From an uncultured Acidobacteriota bacterium (lineage in GTDB: Bacteria; Acidobacteriota; UBA6911): a stretch of DNA of 64,000 bases. Made by a program: the position numbers and the translations under genes. This document shows positions 15,269 to 16,879 of the stretch, one piece after another. Position 1 is the first letter of the stretch. Each line of letters starts with the position of its first letter. The notes beneath the pieces were generated by a model. It made no database searches and had not been told where the DNA came from. It saw only the letters and a program-made list of their open reading frames with translations. The stretch spans positions 256,001-320,000 of the forward strand of contig CAWEJX010000004.1 of assembly GCA_963809485.1 (NCBI GenBank), given 5' to 3'.

Positions 15269-16879
15269 ATGGAAAAAACCAGGATATCCGGTCTGAACGC
15301 CGGCGAGCTTCGGAACCCATCCGGGCCTTCCAGCCGGCAGGTCTCCCAAAACTTTTGGATACTGCGGGGACTGTCAATCCTGATATTCCTGCTGATTGTC
15401 GGCGGCACCTCTGTCCTTGCCGATCCTGCGTCTGTTCAGGATCTGAAGACTCCGGAGTTGAGTTCCACCGAAGAACAGTTTCGCCAGGTCTACGCCGAAC
15501 TGGAAAGGCAGCGTCAGCTTTTGCACGATCGGACCCGGCTGCCCATAGATGAACAAAGATCGCTGGAAAATCATCTCTCCGAAGTGCGCAGGAGGTTGAA
15601 GAGAATTTCCAGCCAAATGGATGCGCTGCAGAGGCGCGAAAGCCTGCAGGCCGCAGATATTGCATCCTTGACTGCCAGCTTGCGGGATTTTAAGTCTCAG
15701 ATGAGTCTGCAAAACCAAAACGCGGCGACAGCGCAGGAATCAATTCAGGAAAAGACCTCGCTTGTTCTGTATGCCGTTTGGGCACTCGCTGGCGGAATAG
15801 TAGCTCTGGGAGCTGCCTTTCTAGTTTCCCATCATCGCCAGAAGCGGGTGCTCGGAGAAATTATCGGCCACACGAAGAGGCTGTTGGGCATGGGAAAGTC
15901 GAGGCTGCCTGTTCCGGAGGCTGACACAAGGGCTTCGTGGCAGACTCCGGATCCGCAGATCAATTTCGAAGCCCTTTATCCAAAAGAGATTTCGACATTT
16001 AAGCCGCCCGACGACTGGATTGAGGGATTGCGTATCACTCTTACCAGCGAGACGCTCCAGGGGATGGTGGAGGTGGTTGACCGGGCGGAAAGAGAACGCC
16101 CCGGCCTGGAATCCGGCGGGGCTTTGGTAGGGCGGGTAAGGTGCGACGCCGACGGCAATTGGCAGGATGTCTATGTCGAGGGTCTGTTGAGCGCGGGCAA
16201 TGACGTGAAATATGAATGCGCCTATTATGAGGAAGACCGGGCGGCACAGGGATCAGAACTGGAGCGTTTCCGCGCATTGGACACCCGGGTGTCCTACCTC
16301 GGGGATTTTCACCGGCATCCGGGCCGCATGTACTTCCCCAGTGGAGGGGATCATCAAACCGACGCGCGCAATGTCTGTGAGAGTTTTGCAAAAAACTTCA
16401 AGGGCGGATTTGTATACGTGATATTCACTCGCCACGACGGAAGCCGCAAAGGCGGCCTGGTTCAAGACGGATGGAGAGCCGACTTTTATTTTATGCACCG
16501 CGGGCTGCTGGAGTATGTACCTTTCCAGCCGCGCATCGTGGAAGGCGGGGTTCGCCCCAAAGCATGGCAAATCCCTCACCTTCCCAGGGTACGTTCCGAA
16601 CTTGGCGGACTGAGGGCTTTTGCGCAAACAGTCCGGCTTGATCAATTGGCAAAAGACGGCGATGACTACCTGGTGGTCGACGTTGCCGATCCGCGTTGGG
16701 GCGATAGGAGGGTGCTCTTCTTCCTGGCCGATAACTACCCTTACGTTTCCCCAACTGTTTTCCTCGCAAAACACGAAAAAATGACCGCCCTGAACTCCTG
16801 GATACCAGTCTGGAGTCCAAATAGCGGGCTGGTCAACATCCTATATGGCCTAACAGAAAAAGGTGAACTGCCAAGCTGA
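15269..16879 (+). CDS. Membrane-anchored JAB/MPN+ metallopeptidase with N-terminal coiled coil and C-terminal UBC/E2-like domain
   Basis: AGGAGG RBS. Order is hydrophobic segment, coiled coil, second TM (LVLYAVWALAGGIVALGAAFLV), JAB motif ESGG...DFHRHP...PSGGD, then UBC-like FFLADNYPYVSPTVFL with no following Cys. Confidence 0.82.
   Translation: MEKTRISGLNAGELRNPSGPSSRQVSQNFWILRGLSILIFLLIVGGTSVLADPASVQDLKTPELSSTEEQFRQVYAELERQRQLLHDRTRLPIDEQRSLENHLSEVRRRLKRISSQMDALQRRESLQAADIASLTASLRDFKSQMSLQNQNAATAQESIQEKTSLVLYAVWALAGGIVALGAAFLVSHHRQKRVLGEIIGHTKRLLGMGKSRLPVPEADTRASWQTPDPQINFEALYPKEISTFKPPDDWIEGLRITLTSETLQGMVEVVDRAERERPGLESGGALVGRVRCDADGNWQDVYVEGLLSAGNDVKYECAYYEEDRAAQGSELERFRALDTRVSYLGDFHRHPGRMYFPSGGDHQTDARNVCESFAKNFKGGFVYVIFTRHDGSRKGGLVQDGWRADFYFMHRGLLEYVPFQPRIVEGGVRPKAWQIPHLPRVRSELGGLRAFAQTVRLDQLAKDGDDYLVVDVADPRWGDRRVLFFLADNYPYVSPTVFLAKHEKMTALNSWIPVWSPNSGLVNILYGLTEKGELPS

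What the first reader, a model, noticed from the sequence alone, without database searches (positions are those of the whole stretch)
15269..16879. Receptor-like topology for a JAB deubiquitinase-type enzyme
Seen: signal/TM segment, about 100-aa coiled coil, second TM followed by basic residues (HHRQKR), then an intact JAB motif (E...HxH...PSxxD) and a UBC-like tail. Inference: the coiled coil is extracytoplasmic and the peptidase cytoplasmic, so envelope events could control processing or deconjugation. The bacterial JABs I know from conjugation systems (Cap3, BilC) are soluble.
Basis: partly seen in the sequence, partly recalled or inferred. Interest (0 to 1): 0.72.

Follow-up and report, generated by a model that had tools for sequence, protein, structure and literature searches.

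The report
Membrane-anchored JAB peptidase with UEV-like tail
This gene encodes a rare membrane-anchored zinc peptidase of the deubiquitinase type, fused to an inactive E2-like domain, and it heads a small bacterial ubiquitin-like conjugation operon of a layout not found described in print.

Summary
ORF 15269-16879 is one gene with a strong ribosome-binding site. It encodes a signal/TM segment, a ~100-aa heptad-periodic helical ectodomain, a second TM followed by HHRQKR, an intact JAMM/JAB domain and a catalytically dead E2/UEV-like tail.

The architecture recurs independently: a 77% identical metagenome copy, a 37% identical copy on a contig whose small protein a source names Poribacteria, and P0003 (34%). 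Of 69 distant relatives, 38 carry hydrophobic segments upstream of the JAB, about 149 residues before HxH.

The gene heads a conserved operon: membrane JAB-UEV, a ~62-aa protein, a soluble JAB-UEV paralogue, E2, a minimal E1 and a membrane protein. The small protein is the most constrained gene (dN/dS 0.05). It ends in an invariant His-aromatic plus a hypervariable tail, and it is modelled with that tail in the JAB active site (ipSAE 0.70, best control 0.00).

My reading is a membrane-tethered processing/deconjugating peptidase of a Cap2/Cap3-like conjugation system whose modifier is this small protein. The receptor idea is plausible but unsupported, because the ectodomain is not conserved and is absent in many relatives. 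The system is rare: 70 of 1.84 billion representatives. Four literature searches found no description. I rate it a new variant of a known kind.

The parts
13451..15049 (-). Divergently transcribed TPR protein with a C-terminal Fis-type HTH. It is a candidate regulator of the operon.
   Evidence: Pfam TPR_12 1.5e-19 and HTH_8 3.6e-4, the latter below its cut-off. An 82% identical copy sits upstream of the homologous gene on L009.
15155..15184 (+). Sigma-70-like promoter match in the intergenic region upstream of the JAB gene.
   Evidence: TTGACA-18-AATCAT, 10 of 12. The number of such sites in the region is no higher than in shuffles, so this is weak.
15269..16879 (+). Whole gene for the membrane-anchored JAB-UEV protein (536 aa).
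15353..15421 (+). Residues 29-51: first hydrophobic segment, either a signal peptide or TM1 (possible cleavage VLA|DP).
   Evidence: KD maximum 2.12. AF2 helix 28-44 at low pLDDT.
15422..15757 (+). Residues 52-163: helical, heptad-periodic ectodomain.
   Evidence: AF2 helices 62-86 and 93 onward. Heptad z 4.1. dN/dS 0.37 against L009.
15758..15829 (+). Residues 164-187: TM2, followed by HHRQKR.
   Evidence: KD maximum 2.09. It lies inside one continuous AF2 helix, 93-208, with pLDDT 84-95 over 150-200.
15830..16018 (+). Residues 188-250: cytoplasmic linker, disordered from about 209 to 245.
   Evidence: pLDDT below 50 over 209-245. dN/dS 0.53.
16019..16543 (+). Residues 251-425: JAB/JAMM metallopeptidase domain (E281, H348, H350, S358, D361).
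   Evidence: dN/dS 0.12.
16544..16876 (+). Residues 426-536: inactive E2/UEV-like domain (YPyvsPtV motif, conserved Trp, no catalytic Cys segment).
   Evidence: dN/dS 0.16.
16901..17089 (+). Small conserved protein of 62 aa (64 aa if started at 16895). It is the candidate modifier or JAB ligand, ending ...VPSGVGHWLKL.
   Evidence: SD spacing and the L009 start. 92% identity and dN/dS 0.048. Present in all related loci examined. Family of 27 with an invariant His. Complex model.
17350..18603 (+). Soluble paralogue JAB-UEV (JAB2, 417 aa from MSRWLKQ). Its last ~100 codons overlap the E2 gene in another frame.
   Evidence: 32% identity to residues 255-528 of the target. Prok-JAB 25.3 bits. The soluble forms make one clade.
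18299..18721 (+). E2-like conjugating enzyme (140 aa) with invariant H80 and C88.
   Evidence: PADLOC E2 PDLC00876 2.3e-20. Alignment A5. PDB profile hits: 8hsb_B E2 3.3e-5 and UBE2L3 8.5e-5.
18741..19613 (+). Minimal E1-like adenylating enzyme (290 aa, single ThiF domain).
   Evidence: Pfam ThiF 5.9e-33. PADLOC E1-E2 PDLC00829 4.7e-32. PDB MoeB 1.3e-12, SAE2, PaaA, MccB, UBA5.
19610..20383 (+). Membrane protein (257 aa) with an N-terminal TM followed by RRRKKK and a ~220-aa orphan cytoplasmic domain. It is the last gene of the operon.
   Evidence: No Pfam, PADLOC or NCBIfam hit. Homologous domain in L011, there fused to PAS_3. Only 3 true relatives in the big search.

Best explanation
The ORF is a single genuine gene for a membrane-tethered JAMM/JAB isopeptidase.

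Architecture: a signal peptide or first TM and a second TM put a ~110-residue helical coiled-coil stretch outside the cytoplasmic membrane. The JAB domain and a fused, catalytically dead E2/UEV-like domain sit on the cytoplasmic face.

Operon: it is the first gene of a six-gene ubiquitin-like conjugation operon, namely membrane JAB-UEV, ~62-aa protein, soluble JAB-UEV, E2 with Cys88/His80, minimal ThiF-type E1, membrane protein.

Most likely mechanism:
- The small protein is the modifier of the system.
- A JAB trims its hypervariable C-terminal tail.
- E1 adenylates the exposed C-terminus, and E2 carries it as a thioester to targets.
- The membrane-anchored JAB-UEV grips the modifier between its UEV-like domain and its JAB groove and removes or processes it at the inner face of the membrane. 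Deconjugation is thereby confined to that place.

Shown here: gene integrity, domain identities, conserved membrane anchoring, operon conservation, strong constraint on the small protein.
Predicted only: the JAB-small protein complex.
Inferred from the Cap2/Cap3 and Bil systems: adenylation, the thioester relay and conjugation.
Unknown: the targets, the exact cleavage site, and the biological role.
For: One gene:
- Strong SD and an upstream in-frame stop.
- Gapless 536-codon alignment to independent contig L009, with purifying selection in every segment: ectodomain 0.37, JAB 0.12, CTD 0.16.

Domains:
- Prok-JAB 34 bits against cut-off 25.
- JAMM residues invariant in 35 of 35.
- Cap3 9ild_A Z 15.3, rmsd 2.5, 143 aligned.
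- CTD against the operon's own E2: hhalign 81.7%, E 1.1e-5, 57 columns.
- 22 of 26 PDB profile hits are UBC E2s.
- Tsg101 UEV Z 10.2, rmsd 3.0, 111 aligned.

Membrane anchoring is conserved:
- 38 of 69 non-self representatives have one or more hydrophobic segments upstream of HxH, and 25 of the 34 with E<=1e-10 do (P0003-P0036).
- Median distance from TM end to HxH is 149 residues, and K/R are richer on the JAB side in 30 of 40.
- Anchored forms occur in both deep clades of a 40-row tree.

Operon:
- JAB, then E2, then E1 in 6 of 6 genome loci.
- The same six-gene order in L011 at 37-58% identity.
- A small ORF with SD after the membrane JAB in every locus.

Small protein:
- dN/dS 0.048, the lowest in the locus.
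- 28 of 28 aligned members keep one His, followed by Y, F or W and then 0-5 hypervariable residues; one member carries a longer read-on tail.

Complex model, JAB-UEV 246-536 with the small protein:
- ipSAE 0.70 (runs 0.66-0.73), best of 3 controls 0.00. The mark was reached by 58 of 80 solved complexes and 2 of 110 mismatched pairs.
- Runs agree in at least 60% of contacts, and the partner pLDDT is 51-72.
- The interface includes E281, H348, H350, S358-D361, strand 342-344 and CTD residues 445-505, against partner residues 45-63.
Against: - No experiment. Topology rests on hydropathy and charge counts: 6 of 40 members have more K/R on the outer side, and the first segment of the 77% homologue fails my threshold.
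- The small protein is not a recognisable beta-grasp. AF2 gives pLDDT 55 with a helix followed by a hairpin, and it lacks a universally conserved C-terminal Gly (GVG and TGG in two lineages, DT in the Planctomycete type). The modifier role is therefore an inference by elimination.
- The complex pass may reflect the model's memory of solved Ub-JAMM complexes. I used my own alignments, so the calibration holds only roughly.
- The CTD's PDB profile hits are individually insignificant (E 0.33-1.8). The Tsg101 match range (332-536) includes part of the JAB. The CTD was not folded alone.
- No target or effector was identified.
Confidence: 0.55

Rival explanations
1. Receptor-type deubiquitinase. The extracytoplasmic coiled coil senses an envelope event. 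Through the continuous helix that runs across TM2, it switches the cytoplasmic JAB on or off, so that the conjugation state reports on the envelope.
For: - One uninterrupted predicted helix, 93-208, links ectodomain, TM2 and cytoplasm.
- The TM-to-HxH spacing is nearly constant (median 149 residues).
- Heptad-periodic ectodomains occur in 5 members from distant lineages: z 3.8-8.1 for the window, P0002, L011, P0003 and P0010.
- Neighbouring membrane proteins carry sensor-type modules: PAS_3 2.8e-24 in L011, and TPR ectodomains in Planctomycete loci.
Against: - The ectodomain sequence is not conserved (window against L011, E 0.27).
- Of the 21 representatives with a single upstream segment, 11 are 366-415 aa with that segment at the very N-terminus (plus the 288-aa P0050), so they have essentially no ectodomain.
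- Other ectodomains are low-complexity without heptads (z -0.3 and 0.3).
- The ectodomain is under weaker constraint than the enzyme (0.37 against 0.12).
- The full-length search of 1.84 billion representatives listed no best match within residues 1-160.
Confidence: 0.2
2. The small protein is not a modifier but a pseudo-substrate regulator or adaptor of the JAB. Its invariant His sits at the zinc site and blocks or tunes the peptidase. E1 and E2 then act on the C-terminus of another protein, as Cap2 does on the CD-NTase in type II CBASS.
For: - The only invariant residue in 28 of 28 members is a His near the C-terminus, not a Gly.
- The modelled interface includes the zinc ligands H348, H350 and D361.
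- The fold is not a recognisable beta-grasp.
- E2 and E1 are most like CBASS-type modules in PADLOC (2.3e-20 and 4.7e-32), a system in which the substrate is an enzyme rather than a Ubl (established knowledge, recalled).
Against: - No other operon protein has a conserved C-terminus, as seen from the ends of the JAB and TM257 sequences.
- A conserved motif followed by a hypervariable tail of 0-5 residues is the usual picture of a pro-modifier that is trimmed.
- L011 has TGG directly before the His.
- E1 and E2 are kept in every locus together with the small gene.
Confidence: 0.2
3. The operon is an anti-phage defence system of the Cap2/Cap3-Bil kind, and membrane tethering serves defence, for example by acting on incoming phage proteins at the membrane. 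This concerns the biological role and is compatible with the mechanism above.
For: - All three enzymes resemble CBASS accessory modules, with Cap3 the top structural match.
- Distribution is very sporadic: not found in 40 relatives (0 of 24 in the same genus); 2 of 301 genomes of the host phylum including the host itself, the other being a JAB-only match; 2 of 301 in the phylum of L003, both already known.
Against: - No cyclase, nuclease or other known effector appears among the 7 locus proteins in PADLOC.
- The 10 flanking ORFs scanned hold no defence or mobile-element gene.
- L011 lies beside pyrR and dihydroorotase.
- No relative on viral contigs or phages, and only one weak JAB-only match on plasmids.
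Confidence: 0.25
4. Artefact: two genes fused by misassembly or by a sequencing error, or a chance ORF.
For: None was found. Logan unitigs of 4 runs were only 151-180 nt long, so they could not bridge the gene.
Against: - An independent contig carries the same 536-codon frame without gaps.
- L011 and P0003 have the same architecture.
- Purifying selection acts on every segment.
- One SD-ATG at the start, with a stop just upstream.
Confidence: 0.02

Closest known systems
Cap3 (JAB isopeptidase of type II CBASS) with Cap2 (E2-E1)
   Same: Cap3 is the best structural match to the JAB domain (9ild_A, Z 15.3). E2 and E1 match PADLOC's CBASS E2 and E1-E2 models. The logic is the same: a JAB set against an E1/E2 pair.
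   Different: Cap3 is a ~150-aa soluble protein. Here the JAB has a signal/TM-ectodomain-TM front and a UEV-like tail. E2 and E1 are separate genes, the operon has no CD-NTase or effector, and a conserved ~62-aa protein is present instead. The NCBIfam Cap3 model was not matched by the target; the soluble paralogue reached only 23.3 bits against a cut-off of 200.
Bil (BilA Ubl, BilB E2, BilC JAB, BilD E1) and Bub (6E) operons
   Same: All are stand-alone bacterial operons with a small modifier, E2, E1 and JAB. In Bub the JAB processes a pre-protein to expose the reactive C-terminus (PMC11601596, passages).
   Different: BilD has tandem adenylation domains plus a Cys domain, and Bub has Ubl-E2 or JAB-E1 fusions plus DUF6527 (same passages). 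Here E1 is a 290-aa single ThiF domain, no DUF6527 was hit, the modifier candidate is not a recognisable beta-grasp, and the JAB is membrane-anchored.
Operon types 6a-6e of Iyer, Burroughs and Aravind 2006
   Same: Sporadically distributed E1/E2/JAB gene clusters. An inactive E2/RWD-like domain occurs in type 6e (PMC1779556, section 14 read in full).
   Different: None of the five types pairs a TM-anchored JAB-UEV fusion with separate E2, E1 and a helix-first small protein. The word 'transmembrane' in that paper refers only to YukD proteins.
Eukaryotic UEV proteins (Tsg101, Mms2/Uev1) and JAMM deubiquitinases (AMSH, Rpn11, BRCC36)
   Same: The tail matches the Tsg101 UEV domain by fold (2f0r_A, Z 10.2). 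The JAB matches Rpn11, BRCC36 and AMSH. UEV domains bind ubiquitin non-covalently (recalled), which fits the modelled contact of the tail with the small protein.
   Different: In eukaryotes these are separate proteins. Here both are fused in one membrane protein, and sequence identity is only 11-18%.

Membership tests
JAMM/JAB metallopeptidase (Pfam Prok-JAB PF14464) | Catalytic motif E ... HxH ... SxxD | tested here: met
   E281, H348, H350, S358 and D361 are present and invariant in 35 of 35 aligned relatives.
JAMM/JAB metallopeptidase (Pfam Prok-JAB PF14464) | Score above the curated Pfam cut-off, and MPN fold | tested here: met
   34 bits against cut-off 25. Foldseek Rpn11-homologue 6fnn_B E 3.1e-7. 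VIA Cap3 Z 15.3.
Cap3 of type II CBASS (NCBIfam NF050170) | Equivalog score (cut-off 200 bits) | tested here: not met
   The model is not among the target's 8 NCBIfam hits at E<=0.1. The paralogue JAB2 reaches 23.3 bits.
Cap3 of type II CBASS (NCBIfam NF050170) | Operon with a CD-NTase and an effector | tested here: not met
   No cyclase or effector model matched any of the 7 locus proteins. The single 'Cyclase' row is the E2-like end of a fusion model, hit by the E2.
Bil system (BilABCD) | [quoted passage not shown] | tested here: not met
   The E1 is 290 aa with one ThiF domain at residues 18-221. The definition is taken from PMC11601596 passages.
Bil system (BilABCD) | Beta-grasp Ubl with C-terminal Gly | tested here: inconclusive
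   The small-protein model has pLDDT 55 with a helix and then a hairpin. A Gly before the His occurs in only part of the family.
Bub / 6E system | DUF6527 (BubE) protein, and Ubl-E2 or JAB-E1 fusions | tested here: not met
   No DUF6527 hit in the 7 proteins. E2, E1 and JAB are separate genes.
UEV / inactive E2 (RWD-like) domain | E2 fold: N-terminal helix, beta-meander, YPxxPPxV loop, C-terminal helix | tested here: met
   AF2 elements H438-451, five strands and H521-530. hhalign to the operon E2 81.7%. 22 of 26 PDB profile hits are E2s, each with weak E. Tsg101 UEV Z 10.2. The domain was not folded on its own.
UEV / inactive E2 (RWD-like) domain | No catalytic Cys/HPN segment | tested here: met
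   The 11-sequence CTD alignment has no conserved Cys or His; only P5 and P75 are invariant. The HMM alignment to UBE2A skips the Cys-bearing stretch. The hhalign match stops before the E2's H80/C88.
Bitopic or hairpin membrane protein, N-in/C-in with an extracytoplasmic loop | Two membrane-spanning segments, positive-inside charge bias | tested here: met
   KD peaks 2.12 and 2.09. K+R counts: 4 in residues 1-28, and 3 in the 15 residues after TM2. Family-wide, 30 of 40 follow the bias. This is computational only.
Bitopic or hairpin membrane protein, N-in/C-in with an extracytoplasmic loop | Experimentally determined topology, and signal-peptide cleavage | not testable with these tools
   No SignalP or DeepTMHMM here, and no reporter fusions.
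Transmembrane receptor (sensor) | A conserved ligand-binding or sensing ectodomain shared across the family | tested here: not met
   No similarity between the window and L011 ectodomains (E 0.27). The ectodomain is absent or low-complexity in many members.

The most novel reading that the evidence does not exclude
This is a previously undescribed, membrane-integrated ubiquitin-like pathway of bacteria. A receptor-type JAMM deubiquitinase with a built-in UEV-like reader domain couples the state of the envelope to the conjugation status of a ~60-residue modifier that is not a beta-grasp protein. That modifier's reactive end is defined by an invariant His-aromatic motif rather than Gly-Gly. PAS- or TPR-bearing membrane proteins of the same operon would serve as partners or targets.
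Probability: 0.15. Interest if true: 0.85.

Novelty: new variant of a known kind. Interest (0 to 1): 0.62.

Why it matters
Bacterial E1/E2/JAB operons (CBASS Cap2/Cap3, Bil, Bub) are the closest prokaryotic relatives of ubiquitination. Every peptidase described in them so far is soluble or fused to E1.

This family adds three things:
- a JAB that is anchored in the membrane across two deep clades;
- a JAB-UEV fusion, that is, eraser and reader in one chain;
- a tightly conserved ~62-aa partner that does not look like ubiquitin but is modelled with its tail in the JAB active site.

If the small protein is conjugated, it would widen the range of proteins that E1/E2 enzymes can handle, and it would give a compact system for studying membrane-localised deconjugation. 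If it is an inhibitor, it would be a new way of controlling a JAMM enzyme. Both alternatives can be tested by expressing six small genes in E. coli.

Tried and rejected
- ESM Atlas gave no usable hit for the small protein or for the 257-aa membrane protein.
- Pfam, PADLOC and NCBIfam gave nothing for either protein.
- The AF2 model of the small protein was too uncertain (pLDDT 55) to send to a fold search.
Its fold call rests on the whole-protein model.
- VIA matches of the ectodomain to ESCRT-III hairpins and designed helical bundles (Z 9.3-10.1) lie below the tool's own bar of about 13 for helical proteins. I treat them as generic helical hairpins.
- The 290-aa TM-coiled-coil protein encoded upstream in Planctomycete loci shows no similarity to the target's N-terminal half (E 0.48).
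- The membrane proteins downstream of E1 in the window/L011 type and in the Planctomycete type are not detectably related (hhalign 0.1%).
- In the profile search with A7, all hits beyond 4 true relatives were PAS-domain matches caused by the L011 row.
- Sequencing runs: no RNA holder was listed. Four DNA runs held only 151-180-nt unitigs at depth 2-4, none bridging the gene. This says nothing on expression or on the junction.
- The 260-nt gap between the small gene and JAB2 has no unusual fold (z -0.35).
- Rfam found nothing in the window, and there are no tRNAs.
- The promoter and terminator scan did not exceed shuffles.
- Viral contigs, phages and plasmids gave no relative of the JAB-UEV part beyond one weak JAB-only plasmid match.
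- Literature: four full-text searches returned no paper describing a membrane-anchored bacterial JAB in an E1/E2 operon. I read PMC1779556 section 14 in full plus passages and passages of PMC11601596; all other papers I saw only as listings. Supplementary tables of those papers were not opened and might list such operons.
- Tree: before building I dropped P0037 (a 4803-aa repeat protein), the fragments P0007, P0011, P0012 and P0033, and all hits beyond P0042. The root is at the midpoint only.
- Genome surveys scored at most 4-5 candidates per genome, so weak copies may have been missed.
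Full report
THE GENE. ORF 15269..16879 (+) encodes 536 aa. Its ATG lies 8 nt after AAAGGAGGG, and an in-frame stop sits just upstream, so the start is well defined. Kyte-Doolittle hydropathy (19-residue window, >=1.6) gives two segments, residues ~29-51 and ~164-187. The second is followed by HHRQKR. The N-terminal 28 residues carry 4 K/R and the 15 residues after TM2 carry 3. That fits an N-in, loop-out, C-in topology. If VLA|DP is a signal-peptidase site, it fits a type I protein instead. I could not run SignalP or DeepTMHMM, so that point stays open. It does not change where the rest of the protein lies.

DOMAINS. Pfam calls Prok-JAB at 273-388 (34 bits, cut-off 25). 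In an alignment of 35 relatives, E281, H348, H350, S358 and D361 are invariant.

An AF2 model built on that alignment has mean pLDDT 76.7. It shows:
- helix 28-44;
- helix 62-86;
- one long helix 93-208 that runs through TM2;
- a disordered linker 209-245;
- the JAB domain, 255-425;
- a last domain made of a helix, five strands and a helix (438-530).

Foldseek finds Rpn11-homologue, BRCC36, CSN and AMSH chains (best E 3.1e-7). The Foldseek-independent search ranks Cap3 first (9ild_A, Z 15.3, rmsd 2.5, 143 aligned).

Residues 60-163 have heptad a/d periodicity well above shuffles (z 4.1). The JAB domain as control gives z -0.4.

THE TAIL. I aligned the last ~110 residues of 11 family members by reference (A4).
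- A profile of it against all PDB sequences returns 26 hits at E<=10, of which 22 are UBC E2 enzymes. Each is weak (E 0.33-1.8). They align over the FxxxYPxxPPxV ... W core and skip the Cys-bearing stretch.
- Profile-profile comparison with the operon's own E2 family (A5) gives 81.7% probability, E 1.1e-5, over 57 columns. These cover the first helix, the beta-meander and the YPxxxP loop, and they end before the E2's invariant H80/C88.
- The whole-model search lists the Tsg101 UEV domain (2f0r_A, Z 10.2, rmsd 3.0, 111 aligned, model range 332-536).

Together these support an inactive E2/UEV-like domain. The domain was not folded alone.

NOT AN ARTEFACT. A metagenome contig (L009) carries a 536-codon homologue at 77% identity without a single gap. 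dN/dS by segment is shown below.

| Segment | dN/dS |
|---|---|
| N-tail | 0.83 |
| TM1 | 0.56 |
| Ectodomain | 0.37 |
| TM2 | 0.68 |
| Linker | 0.53 |
| JAB | 0.12 |
| Tail (CTD) | 0.16 |

The N-terminal half is therefore coding and constrained, though less so than the enzyme.

L011 is a 43% GC contig whose small protein a source names Candidatus Poribacteria. It encodes a 558-aa protein with a TM, a strongly heptad-periodic stretch (z 8.1), a second TM, a JAB and the same tail, at 37% identity over the JAB and tail. P0003 (806 aa, 34% identity) has the same layout.

THE FAMILY. The exhaustive HMMER search of 1.84 billion representatives found only 70 proteins at E<=1e-3, 35 of them at E<=1e-10.

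Of the 69 non-self hits:
- 17 have two or more hydrophobic segments upstream of the HxH motif;
- 21 have one;
- 27 have none;
- 4 lack the motif by my pattern.

Among P0003-P0036 (E<=1e-10), 25 of 34 are anchored. Many begin with a textbook signal peptide followed by one TM. The distance from the last TM to HxH has a median of 149 residues. K/R are more numerous on the JAB side in 30 of 40 members, equal in 4 and fewer in 6.

A maximum-likelihood tree of 40 rows splits into two clades (100/100). One holds the window type. Within it the soluble forms, including the operon's second JAB, make a single subclade (96/98). The other clade has 28 anchored rows of 31. Fragments and a giant repeat protein were left out, and the root is midpoint only. 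Anchoring is thus the common state and the soluble paralogue is a derived branch.

Ectodomains are not conserved. The window against L011 gives E 0.27. Two Planctomycete-type ectodomains have no heptad signal (z -0.3 and 0.3). Eleven representatives of 366-415 aa, plus the 288-aa P0050, have only an N-terminal anchor.

THE OPERON. Downstream on the same strand lie:
- a small ORF;
- a soluble JAB-UEV paralogue (32% identity over 255-528);
- an E2 (PADLOC E2 2.3e-20; invariant H80 and C88; best PDB hits a bacterial E2, 8hsb_B, at 3.3e-5 and UBE2L3);
- a 290-aa single-domain E1 (ThiF 5.9e-33; PDB MoeB, SAE2, PaaA, MccB, UBA5);
- a 257-aa membrane protein with no known family.

A TPR protein with a Fis-type HTH is transcribed divergently, and it is also present on L009.

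L011 has the same six genes in the same order, with E2 at 54%, E1 at 58% and the last protein at 26% identity. There the last protein carries an added PAS_3 domain.

Six loci from genome assemblies named Planctomycetota or Hydrogenedentes have membrane JAB, small ORF, E2 and E1 in that order. In four of them (L003, L004, L006, L007) two small membrane proteins lie upstream and a signal-peptide-TPR-TM protein lies downstream. L008 has an unrelated-looking 474-aa protein downstream instead, and L005 is too short to tell.

THE SMALL PROTEIN. Every locus has an SD-preceded ORF of 57-74 codons right after the membrane JAB. In the window the likely start is the ATG at 16901. The SD lies 9 nt before it, and L009 reads AAT ATC ATG there.

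Between the window and L009 it is 92% identical with dN/dS 0.048, the tightest constraint in the locus. A profile search finds 27 members, all unnamed and without Pfam domains.

In the 28-row alignment the only invariant residue is a His near the end. It is followed by Y, F or W and then by 0-5 residues that differ in almost every member. One member's tail reads on for 13 residues after His-Trp. Before the His stand GVG (window), TGG (L011) or mostly DT (Planctomycete type).

AF2 gives a low-confidence helix, then a hairpin, then a floppy tail (pLDDT 55). It is not a recognisable beta-grasp.

A complex prediction of JAB-UEV (246-536) with this protein reached ipSAE 0.70 (three runs, 0.66-0.73) against 0.00 for the best of three controls. 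That mark was reached by 58 of 80 solved complexes and 2 of 110 mismatched pairs. The runs share at least 60% of contacts, and the partner pLDDT is 51-72. Partner residues 50-55 pair with strand 342-344. The interface list contains E281, H348, H350, S358-D361 and tail-domain residues 445-505, with partner residues up to 63.

This is the pose of a ubiquitin tail in a JAMM groove. It may therefore be partly recalled from solved complexes. It shows likeness, not binding.

READING. The simplest account is a Cap2/Cap3-like conjugation system. Its modifier is the small protein, and its core peptidase is held at the inner face of the membrane. The UEV-like domain acts as a non-covalent grip on the modifier.

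The trimming, adenylation, thioester and conjugation steps are inferred from the known systems (PMC11601596 passages; PMC1779556 section 14). None was tested here.

Two points remain open:
- where the tail is cut (before His, after His, or after the aromatic);
- whether the invariant His instead ligates the zinc, which would make the small protein a pseudo-substrate regulator.

The receptor idea is attractive because of the continuous helix through TM2 and the sensor-type neighbours. It is weakened by the non-conserved and often missing ectodomain.

DISTRIBUTION AND CONTEXT.
- The target was not found in 40 related genomes (0 of 24 in the same genus).
- With the family profile, 2 of 301 genomes of the host phylum match, the host itself included, and the other is a JAB-only match.
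- In the phylum of L003, 2 of 301 match, both already known.
- No relatives were found on viral contigs, phages or, in effect, plasmids.
- The 10 flanking ORFs scanned encode an M20 peptidase, a split MFS transporter, a C_GCAxxG protein, a molybdopterin oxidoreductase, a Cass2-like protein and a Ser/Thr kinase. There is no mobile or defence gene among them.

A defence role is possible by analogy, but the context does not indicate it.

COMPARISON WITH WHAT IS KNOWN. None of the operon types 6a-6e, Bil or Bub, or type II CBASS has this combination. Four full-text searches found no description of a membrane-anchored bacterial JAB in such an operon. Supplements were not seen.

I file it as a new variant of the known kind 'bacterial E1/E2/JAB conjugation operon'. 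It is a true JAMM family member and not a Cap3, BilC or Bub member.

Noticed in passing
window 18299-18603: The soluble JAB paralogue's reading frame runs about 100 codons past the E2 start, in another frame, giving a Gly/Pro/Ser-rich tail. The same extension is present in its 80% homologue P0004. The L011 counterpart instead stops 16 nt before its E2. This is either overprinting or a lost stop codon.
   Followed up: partly
window 10965-12060: An MFS transporter appears split into two overlapping ORFs (10965-11462 and 11296-12060), both with MFS_1 hits. It may be a frameshift or a pseudogene.
   Followed up: no
L011 11458-12777: The counterpart of the window's 257-aa membrane protein has two TMs and an inserted PAS_3 domain (2.8e-24) ahead of the shared orphan C-terminal domain. 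Two unassigned genes of 266 and 279 aa follow it.
   Followed up: partly
L007 9546-10931: A second ThiF-domain protein (461 aa, ThiF 4.5e-19) lies two genes downstream of the operon's E1 in one Planctomycete locus.
   Followed up: no
L003 12565-14414 and L006 13349-14440: In L003, an M50B-like membrane peptidase and an AAA ATPase follow the operon. The closely related L006 has an ORF that begins like the AAA gene. These two loci are not independent, and the genes were not seen in the other loci.
   Followed up: partly
proteins P0058, P0060, P0063, P0067: Four weaker relatives of the JAB carry their hydrophobic segment after the JAB domain (residues ~310-367) rather than before it. This suggests membrane anchoring arose more than once around this peptidase.
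   Followed up: no
window 17090-17349: A 260-nt untranslated gap separates the small gene from the next JAB gene (180 nt in L011). Its predicted fold is no better than shuffles (z -0.35), and no Rfam family matches.
   Followed up: yes
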